Positions 59,877-63,862 of a DNA stretch of 64,000 nt are shown here, in pieces. A model generated the notes under the pieces. The model saw only the letters and a program-made list of their open reading frames with translations. It was not told the origin of the DNA and made no database searches. The stretch is taken from positions 5,979 through 69,978 of the forward strand of contig JAMCQL010000035.1 of NCBI GenBank assembly GCA_023381615.1, given 5' to 3'. The stretch comes from Bacteroidota bacterium (lineage in GTDB: Bacteria; Bacteroidota; Ignavibacteria; Kryptoniales; JAKASW01). The first letter of the stretch is position 1; every line of letters starts with the position of its first letter. The translations under genes and the position numbers were made by a program.

Positions 59877-60284
59877 AAAAAGGGCATATAGTGATTTTGG
59901 TGAGATTTACACGGTTTTTCGGTCCTCGCGCTCGGCTTGCTAAGCCGCAGGTTGTCCTGGCAAGGTCGGGATCCTTCGAAGCGTCAAACATATCCCAGCT
60001 TGTGGCGAGGTTGAACAAGATGGGTTGGGTTTTTCCCGGGGGCAGGATGCGACGCGGTTGCACTTGAGAAGTGAAGAAATAACTTTCGGAGAAAAATGGG
60101 CGGCGTCCGGAAAGGAGAAAATGAAGTTATGTCGTATGATATTTCATTTCGGGAGGATGAACACCGTGATGCATGAAGCAGACCGCGAAACTGTTGACAT
60201 TATCCTGAGACAAGTTTAAATTCCTGCAAGATGACAAAGGGCGGAATGAGATCATCCGTAGGATCCTATGGATCGGAGGGAGAC

Positions 60285-60872
60285 ATGAGTGAGAGGTCAG
60301 GAAAGCTGCTCGATGTTCTACAACAGGAATTGAGATTGAGAAATTACAGTCCGAAGACTATCAAGGCATACAAGAGTTGCGTGCGGACTTTTATCCGATG
60401 GATAGCGCCCCGGCATCCTCGTGATCTTGGGGATTACGAAATAAGGGACGTGTTTACGGAAATGCTCGACTCCTATCAACGGTCTCCTGCCGGACTCAAC
60501 CAATTGATCAATGCACTTCGTTTTCTGTATGTTGAACTATATCAAAGGCCAATGAGATTAGGGACATTTCAACGACCGAGGGCTGAGAAGAAACTCCCTG
60601 TGATACTAAGTGAAGAAGAAGTGATCCGTTTACTGGAAGTAATAAAAAACGTCAAACATAAAACAATCCTTATGCTGATCTACTCGGGCGGTTTGCGAGT
60701 GGGTGAGGCTGTTCGCATCAAGATCGCAGATATTGACAGCGACAGAATGCTCATTCACATTCATGAAGGGAAAGGAAAGAAGGATCGATATACCCTTATA
60801 ACTGGCTTGAAGGAACTCCGTAAAGGAGGTAGTGAAAGGGAAGTGTTTAAAAGAAGTGGAGGTGGAGGATGA
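60285..60872 (+). pseudogene. C-terminally truncated IntI-like (integron-integrase-type) tyrosine recombinase
   Basis: N-terminal SAM-like domain LRLRNYSPKTIKAYKSCVRTFIRW, first catalytic Arg in YSGGLRVGEA and beta-hairpin Lys in GKGKKDRYTL. After that the frame degenerates and stops. The H-x-x-R, His/Trp and Tyr catalytic residues are absent from all frames downstream. Confidence 0.6.
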
Positions 60873-60915
60873 GAGAGGTTCTTGAAAGCTTAGCGGAGAT
60901 CCACTCGACCACGCC

Positions 60916-61055
60916 ACATAACAGATGGAACAAAGACGCTCAATTATTGAATATGTGGAATTCGCTTCATGGCGTTTGGCAATATAGAAGGAGAAGACTT
61001 AGAGGTAAGTTCCATGATGCCAAACGCCTCGACTTTGTTCCATCATACGTTATGC
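60916..61055 (+). other. attC-like recombination site 1
   Basis: R'' ACATAAC (60916-60922) and R' GTTATGC (61049-61055). Inner arms AGATGGAACAAAG / CTTTGTTCCATCAT. Internal stem GGCGTTTGGC / GCCAAACGCC. Conserved core TCGCTTCATGGCG. Confidence 0.65.
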
Positions 61056-61129
61056 GAAAGCTGGGCGTGAGGTCTGACTGTTTATTGTTCACCTTACGTT
61101 GCTGTCGATAAGGAGAAAGGGCAATTGAA

Positions 61130-61717
61130 ATGAGCACAAATCCAACATCCGCAGAGTCAATTTCAAGGAGGCAAGGGACAAAGTCTCTCAACATAGCAAG
61201 TCCCCACCCAATACCTTCAAAGCTGTTTTCAAACTGTTATAGTCTAGTCCAAGTGACTCACGCGAAGTTCGGCCTTCTGGCACTTGACTCAAGGCTCGCA
61301 ACCAAAGAGAGTTTGGTGGCAATTGCCCTAATGGAAAGAACTAGAGAGGCCATGGTTAACGCTGGCGCTGAGTATAAGCTCAGGATTATACTTGTATTTG
61401 CTGATATTGCTGTTATCGTCACTGCTTTTGTTTTCAGTTGGTGGATAGTGTTGCTGCTCCCCATCTTGCTCGTGACACAAAGAGGGACTAAGGTCAATGA
61501 ACTCAATCATAGATTCTACGCTTCTGCGTCGCTCCTATCTCTAGAAGTGCTCGCCAATGATTTTGCTGGTTGGGGTACTGCCTATCCTGAAGAACGAGCT
61601 CGAGCAGTTGCAATTCTCGGTGGTGAGCCTATCCCCCCAACGACTTGGCTAGACCTGTATTTAGCACGTCGGGACCAAGTGCCACCCTCCGAACAGAAGA
61701 AGAGCTTTGGTCCATAG
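61130..61717 (+). CDS. Cassette A ORF1: hypothetical protein with a central hydrophobic hairpin
   Basis: An AAGGAG is upstream. The TM stretch is LRIILVFADIAVIVTAFVFSWWIVLLLPILLV. I recognise no family. Its 3' end overlaps the next reading frame at a C6 tract. Confidence 0.5.
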   Translation: MSTNPTSAESISRRQGTKSLNIASPHPIPSKLFSNCYSLVQVTHAKFGLLALDSRLATKESLVAIALMERTREAMVNAGAEYKLRIILVFADIAVIVTAFVFSWWIVLLLPILLVTQRGTKVNELNHRFYASASLLSLEVLANDFAGWGTAYPEERARAVAILGGEPIPPTTWLDLYLARRDQVPPSEQKKSFGP

Positions 61718-61752
61718 ACGATTCTCAACCCTACAATGCCTGGTGTGACGAC

Positions 61753-62352
61753 ATGGACATTCACGACTATATTTTGGCTACCATTCCAGCTGAAATCGAC
61801 GATCAAGATAATTTCATTACCATAGCAAATTATGAAGGAATGCTGGCGGCTAAAGACAAGATTGCGATTGCCCAGATGATTTACCATCGCTTTCATGGAC
61901 GTTACGTAAAGCCATTTTTGTTTGAGAATGAAGAGTACAGGAAACGTTATAAGAGCGGTTTTGCGATGATGGCATCCGCTTGTTTCCTCATAGAGTCGTT
62001 AGAATCCTTCTATCACGGTTGGGAACACACACGAAATCGCGGGGAAGAAGCTTTTGAGAAGTTCTTCAATAGAGAATTCGCTTTCAAAGGCGTTCCCCCC
62101 AAGGACTTCTATAAAAATATTCGTTGTGGTATTTTACATCAGGCGGAGACAACAGGCGGGTTCAGAATCCTAAGGAAGGGTGTTCTCTTCGACCCAGAGA
62201 ACAGGATAGTCAATGCTGAAAAATTCCTGGAAGCACTTGAGGAGTCGCTGAGGGCATATAGGCAGAAGTTGTTGGAGTCTGAATGGGACGATAAGATTTG
62301 GGACAATCTGAGGGTAAAGATGCGATATATAATAGAGCATTGTCGTGGATAG
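61753..62352 (+). CDS. Cassette A ORF2: hypothetical soluble protein with an R-x4-H motif (possible HEPN-like)
   Basis: The open frame runs from 61627 (TTG at 61645, first ATG at 61753). The predicted helical protein carries NIRCGILHQAE at aa 122-132 counted from the ATG. Confidence 0.5.
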   Translation: MDIHDYILATIPAEIDDQDNFITIANYEGMLAAKDKIAIAQMIYHRFHGRYVKPFLFENEEYRKRYKSGFAMMASACFLIESLESFYHGWEHTRNRGEEAFEKFFNREFAFKGVPPKDFYKNIRCGILHQAETTGGFRILRKGVLFDPENRIVNAEKFLEALEESLRAYRQKLLESEWDDKIWDNLRVKMRYIIEHCRG

Positions 62353-62369
62353 TGTTACGCCCAGCCAGC

Positions 62370-62489
62370 GCATAACACGCCGGACAAAGACGCTCGTCAT
62401 TTGTATATATCGAAATCGCTTCATGGCGCGCTCAAACAGTACCCCAGCAAAGGATGCGCGCCACGACTTTGTCCGGCGGGACGTTATGC
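62370..62489 (+). other. attC-like recombination site 2
   Basis: R'' GCATAAC (62370-62376) and R' GTTATGC (62483-62489). Inner arms CGCCGGACAAAG / CTTTGTCCGGCG with extra unpaired bases on the right arm. Internal stem TGGCGCGC / GCGCGCCA. Core TCGCTTCATGGCG. Confidence 0.7.
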
Positions 62490-62516
62490 GAAATGTGCTA
62501 CTAAGGAGATTAGCGA

Positions 62517-63077
62517 ATGGCCAACTACGGTGAAGAATTAGGATATTGGTACCTGAGGCTTAATGGATTCTTTCCGATCACAAACTTCGTTTTTCATTCA
62601 CTAAGCAGTGAAACCCGCAAAGCTCGTTATAACGCAGACGCTGACTTATTAGCGATTCGACCGCCTAATGTTTCTGAGGTATTAATGGAGGAAACACTGA
62701 AATGGGACGACAAAATAATATCCGACCATGACCAGTCTAAGTTTGTGTTTGTTTACTGCGAAGTAAAAACTGGAGAATACGATGCATCTAAGTTGTTTGC
62801 AGAAGAAAGGATCCAGTACGCCAAGAAAAGATTCGGGCTATCTGCAGATTATAGTAGCGTCGAGCGCGTTTTCAAGACGATCCTGATCGCAAATGAAGAG
62901 AAGCCCAACAACTTGAATCGATTTAAGTTTATATCTGTGGACCATATCATTGAATTTATTCGAAGTAGATTCCAAGATTATGACGAAGTAAAGTATCCAT
63001 CAAGAATGTTTTTCGATTCGTCATTAATACAGTTCTTAATTCATGAAGCAAGGAAAAAGCGTCGGAGCCGTGATTGA
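62517..63077 (+). CDS. Cassette B ORF1: PD-(D/E)xK nuclease-fold protein (YraN/restriction-endonuclease-like core)
   Basis: AAGGAG lies 8 nt upstream. The ordered motifs are GEELGYWYLRLNGF, DADLLAI and VFVYCEVKTG (E ... D ... E-x-K). Confidence 0.55.
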   Translation: MANYGEELGYWYLRLNGFFPITNFVFHSLSSETRKARYNADADLLAIRPPNVSEVLMEETLKWDDKIISDHDQSKFVFVYCEVKTGEYDASKLFAEERIQYAKKRFGLSADYSSVERVFKTILIANEEKPNNLNRFKFISVDHIIEFIRSRFQDYDEVKYPSRMFFDSSLIQFLIHEARKKRRSRD

Positions 63078-63125
63078 TGATGGACACATAATGCAATGAC
63101 TAACTCTGATTAAGGATGTTATAGC

Positions 63126-63713
63126 ATGTTTAGCTTGTTCAAAAGGAGAATCAAAATCGATGAGTTGGCGTCATATCTAATTGAACTTAATGTTTTCTCC
63201 AAAAAGCACGAAGAATTACTTCGTGCTTCACTTGGGGACGACACTCAACTTGATCGAAAACGTGTCTTAGAGGAAATGCAGTGGCTTAGTGCTTTCTCTG
63301 TTGATTTTTTTACGTGGTGGATACTCGGCGAGACGGATCGGACGAGGGCTGTACTCGACTCGTTTTACTCCAAACTGAAACCAGTAGTTTACGGAAGAGG
63401 CTGTAGTCCCACTCCAGACCGAACTTGGGTATTGGGGCACACGTGGTTGCCAACAAATGAGAAATTTGAAGCTCGGGCAGGGGTGGGAACAGACCCGTAC
63501 GAAAACCTAAAAGAGAGATTCGCCCTTTATACTGAAGCACTAAGAACAGGCAAACCTCATTCTCAAGAGATAAATCACTTTCAGGTAGGATTCACATTTG
63601 CAAAGCTGTGTGGGACGATTGATATACTGGCTGTCCAACTGGGTCAAAATCTTCTATTGACAAATCTCAAACAGCTTAAGTGGCTATTCAACACCTTCAA
63701 GATAGTACGTTAG
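63126..63713 (+). CDS. Cassette B ORF2: hypothetical 195-aa protein
   Basis: AAGGA lies 9 nt upstream. It starts 48 nt after ORF1 with no attC between them. I recognise no family. Confidence 0.5.
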   Translation: MFSLFKRRIKIDELASYLIELNVFSKKHEELLRASLGDDTQLDRKRVLEEMQWLSAFSVDFFTWWILGETDRTRAVLDSFYSKLKPVVYGRGCSPTPDRTWVLGHTWLPTNEKFEARAGVGTDPYENLKERFALYTEALRTGKPHSQEINHFQVGFTFAKLCGTIDILAVQLGQNLLLTNLKQLKWLFNTFKIVR

Positions 63714-63746
63714 GAAAGACTACTAGATCAATGTGTAGCACACTTC

Positions 63747-63862
63747 GCATAACAACGAGAACCATGACGCTCGATTATTCTATACTATCGATCTCGCTTC
63801 ATGCCGCGCACATAGGAGGCTGCAAGGAGCGCGCCACGACTTTGTTCCATCATACGTTAGCC
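63747..63862 (+). other. attC-like recombination site 3 (arms poorly complementary)
   Basis: R'' GCATAAC (63747-63753) and R' GTTAGCC (63856-63862). Core TCGCTTCATGCCG. The right arm GACTTTGTTCCATCATACGTTA is identical to that of site 1, but the left arm AACGAGAACCATG does not pair with it. Confidence 0.5.

What the first reader, a model, noticed from the sequence alone, without database searches (positions are those of the whole stretch)
61050..62483. Cassette A: unusually large (~1.4 kb) cassette encoding a membrane-hairpin protein plus an R-x4-H (HEPN-like?) protein, a candidate toxin/abortive-infection module
There is no attC between 61130-61717 and 61753-62352, so both ORFs belong to one cassette. 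ORF1 has soluble N- and C-terminal segments around a 32-residue hydrophobic hairpin. ORF2 is predicted all-helical and carries NIRCGILHQAE, which fits the minimal HEPN RNase motif R-x4-6-H placed late in the domain. Membrane-anchor plus HEPN-type effector pairs are recurrent in abortive-infection and toxin-antitoxin systems. Recent experimental work showed that integron cassettes carry anti-phage defence systems. I recognise neither protein as a named family.
Basis: inference. Interest (0 to 1): 0.65.

Follow-up and report, generated by a model that had tools for sequence, protein, structure and literature searches.

The report
Two-gene integron cassette, unnamed protein family
This is a real 1.4-kb integron cassette with two genes of unknown function, but they are not a conserved pair: the second gene belongs to a large unnamed family with an RNase-like (HEPN-style) motif, found alone elsewhere or beside enzymes that cut gamma-glutamyl bonds, never beside the membrane protein.

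Summary
A 1,434-bp cassette (61050-62483), bounded by two attC hairpins, carries ORF1 (195 aa, 33-residue hydrophobic hairpin) and ORF2 (199 aa, R124-x4-H129) 35 nt apart.

The two-gene module reading is not supported.
- ORF1 is rare: two full-length homologues and a few proteins sharing only its C-terminal domain. None lies near an ORF2 relative.
- ORF2 belongs to a large family of about 190-aa proteins (about 2,000 clusters at 50% identity, bacteria and archaea). No Pfam, NCBIfam, PHROGs or PADLOC model matches it.
- None of 80 genome loci with an ORF2 relative encodes an ORF1 relative. In the Vibrio cholerae superintegron the relative is a single-gene cassette.

The HEPN idea stays open.
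- For: R, H and a helix-2 Glu are about 99% conserved. In a confident AlphaFold model (pLDDT 93) the motif sits at the end of a helix, as published for HEPN.
- Against: the residue after R is Cys, not N/D/H. No profile or Foldseek match to any HEPN, or to anything else, was found.

New lead: the family's only recurrent partners cut gamma-glutamyl bonds. A GGCT/AIG2-like gene lies directly downstream in 17 of 80 loci and is fused in at least 7 proteins. A poly-gamma-glutamate hydrolase occurs once.

Interest is moderate.

The parts
60231..60872 (+). Truncated integron integrase gene: the N-terminal half only, on the same strand as the cassettes
   Evidence: It matches TIGR02249 'integron integrase' at E 3e-37, covering model positions 1-166 of 315. 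It also matches Pfam Phage_int_SAM_4 and the first part of Phage_integrase. The first attC starts 44 nt after its stop.
60916..61055 (+). Upstream attC (140 nt). Its R' box GTTATGC at 61049-61055 gives the 5' boundary of the cassette
   Evidence: Found by pattern search and inverted-repeat scan. The bottom-strand hairpin folds at -31.2 kcal/mol, z -7.6.
61050..62483 (+). Cassette A, 1,434 bp, bicistronic
   Evidence: The boundaries are the G^TT crossover points of the two R' boxes. The same cassette, 100% identical, occurs on 9 metagenomic or MAG contigs.
61130..61717 (+). ORF1, 195 aa: a rare membrane-hairpin protein with a conserved C-terminal block LLSLEVLANDFAGWGTA
   Evidence: AAGGAG lies at 61110-61115. 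Only two full-length homologues exist among 5.8 billion clusters, at E 3e-22 and 4e-18; they are aligned. No family model matches.
61379..61477 (+). Coding region for the ORF1 hydrophobic hairpin, L84-T116, with FSWW at its centre
   Evidence: The Kyte-Doolittle profile is hydrophobic throughout. The low-confidence model shows two helices, 81-102 and 104-119. FSWWI is invariant in the three homologues.
61753..62352 (+). ORF2, 199 aa: a member of a large unannotated family of about 190-aa proteins
   Evidence: 163 or more relatives by word-indexed search and 2,012 50%-identity clusters at E<=1e-3. The start at 61753 agrees with the N-termini of homologues. No Shine-Dalgarno sequence precedes it. 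The AlphaFold model has pLDDT 92.9.
62122..62139 (+). Codons for R124-C-G-I-L-H129, the R-x4-H motif
   Evidence: R is 99.6% and H 98.8% conserved in 257 relatives. The motif lies at the C-terminal end of helix 116-128.
62370..62489 (+). Downstream attC (120 nt) belonging to cassette A, with R' GTTATGC at 62483-62489
   Evidence: Found. The bottom-strand hairpin folds at -31.8 kcal/mol, z -5.7.

Best explanation
Shown:
- Cassette A is a genuine attC-bounded cassette. It is the first in a short chromosomal array of four cassettes whose integrase gene has decayed to its N-terminal half.
- It carries two co-oriented genes with no evolutionary linkage to each other.
- ORF2 belongs to a widespread, sporadically distributed, horizontally moving family of soluble proteins of about 190 aa. 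Its most constrained residues are R46, R50, E81, R124, H129 and E132.
- Family members occur alone, including as a single-gene cassette in the V. cholerae superintegron. About a fifth are followed by, or fused to, a gamma-glutamyl cyclotransferase-like enzyme.

Inferred:
- ORF2 is a self-sufficient, conditionally active effector or enzyme that needs no cognate antitoxin or membrane partner.
- Its active site is built around the R-x4-H dyad at a helix end plus the helix-2 glutamate. That geometry matches HEPN-type metal-independent RNases.
- ORF2 is therefore most likely a divergent HEPN-like nuclease of a stress or conflict system that stays inactive until triggered. The single-protein HEPN defence protein ApeA is the working analogy.
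- ORF1 is a lineage-specific addition. It is a small inner-membrane hairpin protein whose translation may drive that of the SD-less ORF2, 35 nt downstream. It is not a defining component of the system.
For: Cassette and array.

Family size and spread: 163+ relatives; 2,012 clusters; 234 hits in 185,579 species genomes across many phyla including archaea.

Sporadic, mobile distribution:
- V. cholerae single-gene cassette flanked by VCRs, next to parDE.
- The closest long-contig relative heads another attC-like array containing a PemK TA.
- 15 plasmid records, near Fic, zeta toxin and recombinases.
- A few loci lie beside DISARM, type IIG R-M, AbiEi, GmrSD or Fic genes.

Active-site-like conservation.

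The topology fits the published HEPN description. [quoted passage not shown] A beta-hairpin after the motif is also seen in Csx1. Model, description from PMC3710099.

Asn, the canonical HEPN residue, replaces Cys125 in 5 of 257 relatives.

No antitoxin requirement: most loci have no conserved neighbour.

ORF2 has no Shine-Dalgarno sequence, whereas ORF1 and the next cassette's first gene have AGGAG.
Against: No sequence or structure link to any HEPN:
- Pfam, including its many HEPN models, finds nothing for ORF2 or for 39 relatives.
- A family profile against all PDB sequences finds nothing. That includes the 'integron cassette HEPN' 3jrt, which did not appear among matches at E<=10.
- Foldseek with a pLDDT-93 model has no hit at E<=1e-3 in PDB or BFVD, and the best TM-score is about 0.2.

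Other points:
- The residue after R is Cys, not N/D/H.
- The acidic residue is not in the Ex3[KR] context.
- The only recurrent partners act on gamma-glutamyl bonds. That has no known link to RNA cleavage and points to peptide or small-molecule chemistry.
- Enrichment near defence genes was not shown statistically.
- All four cassettes of this array are bicistronic, which leaves room for ORF1 being a true partner here.
Confidence: 0.4

Rival explanations
1. One reading: ORF1 and ORF2 form one toxin/abortive-infection module. The membrane-hairpin protein anchors, senses for or neutralises a HEPN-type effector.
For: - Same cassette and strand, a 35-nt gap, and no Shine-Dalgarno sequence before ORF2.
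- Every cassette in the array is a two-gene unit, one of them methyltransferase plus partner.
- Two-gene defence cassettes are documented in mobile integrons (10.1101/2024.07.02.601719).
- Membrane-associated HEPN proteins exist (PMC3710099).
Against: - 0 of 80 genome loci with an ORF2 relative carry an ORF1 relative.
- Neither full-length ORF1 homologue, and none of the C-terminal-domain-only relatives, lies near an ORF2 relative.
- The closest ORF2 relatives (53-57% identity) lack ORF1.
- The V. cholerae relative is a single-gene cassette.
- No TM fusion occurs among 264 family proteins.
- Upstream membrane proteins are no more frequent than expected.
- PADLOC finds nothing.
Confidence: 0.2
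2. ORF2 is not a nuclease. It is an enzyme or binding protein of gamma-glutamyl chemistry, acting on glutathione-like compounds, gamma-glutamyl amines or isopeptides, or poly-gamma-glutamate. It would act in the same pathway as the GGCT-like or PGA-hydrolase partner, with the invariant Arg/His/Glu/Cys residues binding carboxylates or a metal.
For: - A GGCT/AIG2-like gene lies immediately downstream in 17 of 80 loci, often overlapping by 4 nt, and nowhere else in those loci.
- At least 7 proteins are ORF2-GGCT fusions.
- An unrelated gamma-glutamyl hydrolase fold (PF05908, E 2e-45) sits in the same position in L031. Displacement by an analogous enzyme points to a shared substrate class.
- Two i/i+4 pairs, C77/E81 and C125/H129, lie on two helices and would suit a metal site.
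Against: - About 79% of loci, and this window, have no such partner.
- C77 and C125 are replaceable by Ser or Asn.
- No similarity to any known metabolic enzyme fold.
- The patchy, HGT-type distribution in cassettes and plasmids is unusual for a metabolic enzyme.
Confidence: 0.25
3. The cassette carries two unrelated passenger genes that were co-captured or merged. They have no joint function and no defence role. The array is a decaying remnant that is largely unexpressed.
For: - The integrase is truncated.
- No promoter or terminator signal exceeds chance.
- The two families have no linkage.
- ORF1's and ORF2's GC contents differ (0.48 against 0.43).
Against: - Both ORFs are intact and identical on 9 independent contigs.
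- ORF2's catalytic-looking residues are all retained.
- The tight 35-nt spacing leaves no attC remnant between the genes.
Confidence: 0.15

Closest known systems
HEPN superfamily RNases, especially stand-alone forms: ApeA, AbiV-type proteins, and the 'integron cassette HEPN' of PDB 3jrt (Anantharaman et al. 2013, PMC3710099)
   Same: - A near-invariant R-x4-H lies at the end of a helix, running into a loop.
- A conserved acidic residue sits on the helix two before it, with an extra helical insert between.
- The core is mostly alpha-helical, and a beta-hairpin follows the motif as in Csx1.
- The protein is small, soluble and patchily distributed.
- It occurs in integron cassettes and near TA/defence genes.
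   Different: - Cys, not N/D/H, follows the Arg.
- There is no Ex3[KR] motif.
- Further invariant residues (R46, R50, E132) are not part of the HEPN signature.
- No Pfam HEPN model, PDB sequence profile or Foldseek hit connects them.
- The partners are gamma-glutamyl-cleaving enzymes, not MNT, CARF or R-M components. Two weak NTase-like neighbours were seen.
Two-gene defence cassettes of integrons (BRiCs such as brc128A/B and brc135A/B; 10.1101/2024.07.02.601719)
   Same: An attC-bounded cassette of more than 1 kb carrying two co-oriented ORFs of unknown or defence-like function, within an array that also holds an R-M-like cassette.
   Different: No homology to any PADLOC model was found. The two genes are not a conserved pair. 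The host array is chromosomal with a truncated integrase. No phenotype has been tested.
Toxin-antitoxin systems in which the antitoxin enzymatically reverses a modification (DarT/DarG; HEPN/MNT)
   Same: A subset of the ORF2 family is tightly coupled, by 4-nt overlap or fusion, to a hydrolytic or cyclising enzyme that removes a specific chemical group.
   Different: The partner is absent in most loci and in this window. Fusion of toxin and antitoxin in one chain would be unusual. No modifying activity is known or predicted for ORF2.

Membership tests
Integron gene cassette | A 3' attC site with inverse R''/R' core boxes (RYYYAAC ... GTTRRRY) that folds as an imperfect hairpin | tested here: met
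   GCATAAC...GTTATGC at 62370-62489. The bottom strand forms a hairpin with a 3-nt unpaired spacer, z -5.7. The upstream attC at 60916-61055 has z -7.6.
Integron gene cassette | Membership of an array of attC-separated units next to an integron integrase gene | tested here: inconclusive
   Five related attC sites and four cassettes are present. The adjacent gene matches TIGR02249 integron integrase, but only model positions 1-166 of 315. It is truncated and lies on the same strand as the cassettes. No attI was identified.
HEPN superfamily | A conserved R-x4-6-H motif | tested here: met
   R124-x4-H129. R is 99.6% and H 98.8% conserved in 257 relatives.
HEPN superfamily | The motif lies at the end of core helix 3 and the start of the following loop, with an acidic residue on helix 2 and frequent inserts between helices 2 and 3 (PMC3710099) | tested here: met
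   In the AF2 secondary structure, E81 is in H69-88, H97-107 is an insert, and R124 is in H116-128 with H129 at the first loop residue. A hairpin follows, then H155-175 (compared).
HEPN superfamily | A polar N/D/H residue immediately after the Arg | tested here: not met
   Cys in 96.5%, Asn in 5 of 257 and Ser in 2 of 257 relatives.
HEPN superfamily | Detectable profile or fold similarity to an established HEPN family | tested here: not met
   - Pfam hmmscan of ORF2 and 39 relatives gives no HEPN family.
- The PDB profile search finds nothing relevant at E<=10.
- Foldseek against PDB and BFVD gives no hit at E<=1e-3.
HEPN superfamily | Metal-independent RNase activity that depends on the R and H residues | not testable with these tools
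   This needs biochemistry.
Two-component toxin-antitoxin / abortive-infection module | The two genes co-occur as a conserved pair across genomes | tested here: not met
   0 of 80 ORF2-relative loci have an ORF1 relative. No ORF1-relative locus has an ORF2 relative.
Two-component toxin-antitoxin / abortive-infection module | One product is toxic, the other neutralises it, and a phage-dependent phenotype follows | not testable with these tools
   This needs expression experiments.
Known anti-phage defence systems (PADLOC-DB v2) | A match to a model of a known or candidate defence protein | tested here: not met
   0 families for ORF1 and ORF2 at E<=1.
GGCT-coupled subgroup of the ORF2 family (defined here) | A GGACT/AIG2-like gene immediately downstream or fused | tested here: not met
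   A GGCT HMM finds 17 of 80 loci but nothing in the window. The downstream sequence is an attC.

The most novel reading that the evidence does not exclude
The ORF2 family is a new enzyme class, HEPN-derived or a new fold. Its activity either creates, or is switched by, a gamma-glutamyl linkage on a protein, nucleic acid or metabolite. The GGCT-like or poly-gamma-glutamate-hydrolase partner reverses that linkage. This would make it a previously unrecognised 'write/erase' conflict system analogous to DarTG. Solitary copies, such as this cassette and the V. cholerae one, would rely on host erasers or on a trigger.
Probability: 0.12. Interest if true: 0.7.

Novelty: new variant of a known kind. 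Interest (0 to 1): 0.4.

Why it matters
- Most integron cassettes are functional dark matter, and recent work shows that many encode phage defence.
- This cassette exposes a large protein family: about 2,000 clusters, spanning bacteria and archaea and including a V. cholerae superintegron gene. It has no model in Pfam, NCBIfam, PHROGs or PADLOC and no structural neighbour in PDB.
- The family has a sharply defined catalytic-looking site and an unexpected, specific link to gamma-glutamyl-cleaving enzymes.
- If it is a HEPN-type RNase, it adds a new, widely spread branch to a major toxin superfamily. If it is not, the gamma-glutamyl link points to chemistry not yet seen in mobile-element conflict systems.
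- The result also guards against reading every bicistronic cassette as a co-evolved module.

Tried and rejected
1. Family libraries. Pfam, NCBIfam, PHROGs and PADLOC gave nothing for ORF1 or ORF2. The weak VirB3 hit for ORF1 (E 0.005, below cut-off) is just TM-hairpin composition.

2. PDB sequence profile. Only two chance matches appeared, one a CxxCH-like cytochrome alignment.

3. Foldseek against PDB and BFVD with the pLDDT-93 model gave no significant hit.

4. ORF1 structure. With only three sequences the model reached pLDDT 39.8, so it was not used for fold search.

5. Bridge to HEPN through a neighbour. The gene upstream of the ORF2 relative in L024 carries VRCNLFHG. Its family (332 relatives, no Pfam) showed no hhalign similarity to the ORF2 profile, probability <1%.

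6. HEPN paper supplement. The held file is only 5 kb and contains no ORF2-like sequence.

7. Generic attC detection across the 80 loci. My regex and arm-complementarity finder missed the V. cholerae VCRs. The folding-based version produced more than one hit per kb in non-integron DNA. A mixed attC/VCR alignment was too poor for a covariance model. All were dropped, so the fraction of relatives inside cassettes is unknown.

8. Literature. Nothing was found on Q9KMI8/VCA0361 function or on any GGCT-HEPN link. The locus tag VCA0361 for the V. cholerae relative is my inference from accession order, not verified. The Science paper on sedentary-integron defence cassettes is not in the library.

9. 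Fused ORF1-ORF2 reading. The frames differ, the nine copies are identical, and homologue N-termini align with M1 of ORF2, so there is no evidence for a fusion.

10. Promoter and terminator scan gave nothing above chance.
Full report
**1. The observation**

The region lies at the 3' end of the window, where a short integron cassette array begins. Two attC-like sites end in GTTATGC, at 60916-61055 and 62370-62489. A third ends at 63862.

The bottom strands of the first two fold into long imperfect hairpins. Each has a 7-8 bp terminal stem (the R boxes), a 3-nt unpaired spacer and a long second stem. The energies are -31.2 and -31.8 kcal/mol, with z-scores of -7.6 and -5.7 against dinucleotide shuffles.

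It holds ORF1 (61130-61717, 195 aa) and ORF2 (61753-62352, 199 aa). They are 35 nt apart, which is too short for an attC.

**2. The array**

The same DNA, 100% identical, occurs on nine metagenome or MAG contigs. The longest is L003 (GCA_027400995.1), which extends the array.

- There are five related attC sites and four cassettes of 1,434, 1,373, 1,531 and 1,893 bp. Every one is bicistronic.
- Cassette B carries a PD-(D/E)xK-like protein plus an unknown protein.
- Cassette C carries a ParA-like ATPase plus a 138-aa protein.
- Cassette D carries an N6/N4 DNA methyltransferase plus a 206-aa protein.
- So 1.4 kb is normal for this array.

Immediately upstream, on the same strand, is the N-terminal half of an integron integrase. 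It matches TIGR02249 at E 3e-37, covering model positions 1-166 of 315. The platform is therefore decayed.

Promoter and terminator scans show nothing above chance.

**3. ORF1**

ORF1 has one continuous hydrophobic run, L84-T116, flanked by basic residues on both sides. The low-confidence model splits it into two helices at S103/W104. This fits a helical hairpin with both ends in the cytoplasm.

ORF1 is very rare. There are two full-length homologues among 5.8 billion clusters. A metagenome scan adds a few soil proteins that share only the C-terminal block LSLEVLANDFAGWG.

None of these loci contains an ORF2 relative or looks like a cassette. One lies beside the 3' end of a ketoacyl-ACP-synthase-like gene. 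No library model matches ORF1.

**4. The ORF2 family**

ORF2 has 163 or more relatives by word-indexed search and 2,012 clusters at 50% identity by exhaustive HMM search. A scan of 185,579 species genomes gave 234 hits. They span Bacteroidota, Acidobacteriota, Chloroflexota, Proteobacteria, Cyanobacteria, CPR and archaea. That is a patchy, horizontal-transfer-type distribution.

- Phages: one hit in IMG/VR and none in 50,697 phage genomes.
- Plasmids: 15 of 72,556 records, always annotated 'hypothetical' and lying near Fic, zeta toxin and recombinases.
- Models: no Pfam, NCBIfam, PHROGs or PADLOC model matches ORF2, 39 relatives or the V. cholerae member.

**5. Is ORF1-ORF2 a conserved pair? 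No.**

- tblastn with ORF1 finds nothing in the 80 genome loci that carry ORF2 relatives.
- The closest relatives with usable context lack ORF1. P0003 (53% identity) heads another attC-like array that includes a PemK TA. P0006 lies between a TPR protein and an HtrA-like protease.
- In V. cholerae the relative (UniProt Q9KMI8) is a single-gene cassette of about 740 bp between two VCRs, next to parDE.
- None of 264 family proteins carries a TM-bearing extension.
- Upstream neighbours are heterogeneous, and membrane proteins among them are not over-represented.

**6. What does accompany ORF2 relatives?**

Clustering the neighbours gave one recurrent partner. It is a protein of about 150 aa directly downstream on the same strand, often overlapping by 4 nt. 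It carries the YFAYGSNM signature.

- An HMM built from it finds this gene in 17 of 80 loci, always immediately downstream and nowhere else. It is absent from the window.
- Pfam identifies it as GGACT/AIG2-like gamma-glutamyl cyclotransferase.
- At least seven proteins of about 335-360 aa are natural fusions of the ORF2 domain with GGACT.
- In L031 the same position, with a 4-nt overlap, is held by an unrelated fold with related chemistry: a poly-gamma-glutamate hydrolase (PF05908, E 2e-45).

Other neighbours are diverse. A minority are defence or TA genes: DISARM DrmA/DrmD, type IIG R-M, AbiEi, GmrSD and Fic. Two are weak NTase-like proteins. I did not establish statistical enrichment.

**7. 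Is ORF2 a HEPN protein?**

A single R-x4-H is not significant on its own. In 257 relatives, however, the most conserved positions are:

| Residue | Conservation |
|---|---|
| R124 | 99.6% |
| H129 | 98.8% |
| E81 | 99.2% |
| R46 | 99.6% |
| R50 | 98.8% |
| E132 | 99.2% |
| C125 | 96.5% (Asn in 5, Ser in 2) |
| C77 | 97% (Ser in 7) |

The AlphaFold model is confident (pLDDT 92.9, pTM 0.89). Its elements, in order, are:
- a small N-terminal hairpin;
- helices 24-32, 36-55, 60-66, 69-88, 97-107 and 116-128;
- a beta-hairpin (138-140 and 152-154);
- helices 155-175 and 181-198.

I had misremembered where the HEPN motif sits, so I checked the defining paper (PMC3710099). It states the following:
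- A conserved acidic residue lies in helix 2.
- Inserts between helices 2 and 3 are frequent.
- Csx1 has a beta-hairpin right after the motif.

ORF2 fits each of these points: E81 lies in H69-88, H97-107 is the insert, and R124/H129 sit at the end of H116-128, followed by a hairpin.

It does not fit the preference for N/D/H after the Arg. No profile or fold search connects it to any HEPN, including the integron-cassette HEPN 3jrt named in that paper. An attempted bridge through a neighbouring 'VRCNLFHG' family failed.

I therefore rate HEPN membership as open. It works like one on paper, but membership is not demonstrated.

**8. Interpretation**

Most family members have no conserved partner, so the protein cannot be a constitutively active toxin that needs an antitoxin. 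It is either a conditionally activated effector or not a toxin at all.

The sharply conserved Arg/His/Glu site and the mobile, sporadic distribution favour an enzyme of a conflict or stress system. The gamma-glutamyl-cleaving partners are the one specific functional clue. They are not explained by the RNase model.

I give about 0.4 to a self-sufficient HEPN-like effector with ORF1 as a lineage-specific add-on.

**9. Novelty and score**

The cassette itself is ordinary. The ORF2 family is a sizeable unannotated family with no structural neighbour, a candidate new HEPN branch and a new association with gamma-glutamyl enzymes. I classify it as a new variant of a known kind, with interest 0.4.

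The most novel reading not excluded is a gamma-glutamyl 'write/erase' conflict system. I give it about 0.12 probability, and it would deserve an interest of about 0.7 if true.

Noticed in passing
window 60231-60872 (+), with the first attC starting at 60916: The integron integrase gene is cut to its N-terminal half (TIGR02249 positions 1-166 of 315). It lies on the same strand as the cassettes, with its 3' end facing the array. This is the opposite of the classical divergent intI/attI layout. No attI was identified. The 80-aa ORF at 60869-61111 overlaps the attC and is probably spurious.
   Followed up: partly
window 62484-63856 (cassette B: ORFs 62517-63077 and 63126-63713); L003 4212-7642 (cassettes C and D): All four cassettes of the array are bicistronic. 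Cassette B starts with a protein carrying a PD-(D/E)xK-like D...EVK motif. Cassette C is a ParA-like ATPase plus a 138-aa protein. Cassette D is an N6/N4 DNA methyltransferase plus a 206-aa protein, possibly a compact R-M system.
   Followed up: partly
L016 5944-6549 and 6659-7357, compared with window 61753-62352 and 62517-63077: In an unrelated MAG, an ORF2 relative (45% identity) is followed about 110 nt downstream by a homologue of the window's cassette-B first protein (23% identity, pairwise E 4e-6, shared WYLR.NG / D..A.R.P / EVK.G motifs). That is the same gene order as across the attC in the window. GC content jumps from 30% to 52% and back to 30% along these genes. The case is n=2, so its significance is unknown.
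   Followed up: partly
L022, L032-L036, L038-L040, L042, L057, L066, L072, L078, L081, L089, L091 (gene directly after the ORF2 relative); proteins P0143, P0147, P0149, P0154, P0161, P0200, P0224: A GGACT/AIG2-like gamma-glutamyl cyclotransferase is the only recurrent partner of the ORF2 family. It is operonic in 17 of 80 loci and fused at the C-terminus in at least 7 proteins. I found no literature on this pairing.
   Followed up: yes
L031 6537-7124: A poly-gamma-glutamate hydrolase family protein (PF05908, E 2e-45) overlaps the stop of an ORF2 relative by 4 nt. This is a second, unrelated fold acting on gamma-glutamyl bonds in the partner position.
   Followed up: partly
L024 246-755 (protein family P0283-P0402, alignment A4): The gene upstream of one ORF2 relative belongs to another unannotated family of about 160 aa (332 relatives, no Pfam). 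Its members carry an invariant F..LWIAFNGW block and a VRCNLFHGRK motif, which is R-C-x3-H again. It shows no profile similarity to the ORF2 family.
   Followed up: partly
L102 4001-8606: The closest ORF2 relative with long context (P0003, 53% identity) sits at the head of a run of small co-oriented ORFs. They are separated by repeats beginning ...GATAACA, an attC-like array, and include a PemK toxin pair. No integrase lies within 4 kb, which suggests a CALIN-type (integrase-less) array.
   Followed up: partly
L098-L101 (soil metagenome contigs): The ORF1 C-terminal block (LSLEVLANDFAGWG...WL.D.YL) also occurs in proteins of about 175-190 aa from high-GC soil metagenome contigs. These appear to lack the hydrophobic hairpin, so ORF1 seems to be a TM hairpin joined to a separately evolving small domain.
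   Followed up: no
L012 6594-7241; L032 1002-1655: Two genes adjacent to ORF2 relatives share a VGG.A....G..R.T.D.D nucleotidyltransferase-like motif (pairwise E 7e-6). They match AbiEii/MenT-type NTase structures only weakly (8an4 at E 0.07, 5uvd at E 0.4). This recalls HEPN-NTase pairing, but the evidence is too weak to count.
   Followed up: partly
window 1-64000: Rfam at gathering thresholds finds no RNA family at all in the 64 kb on either strand, not even a tRNA.
   Followed up: no
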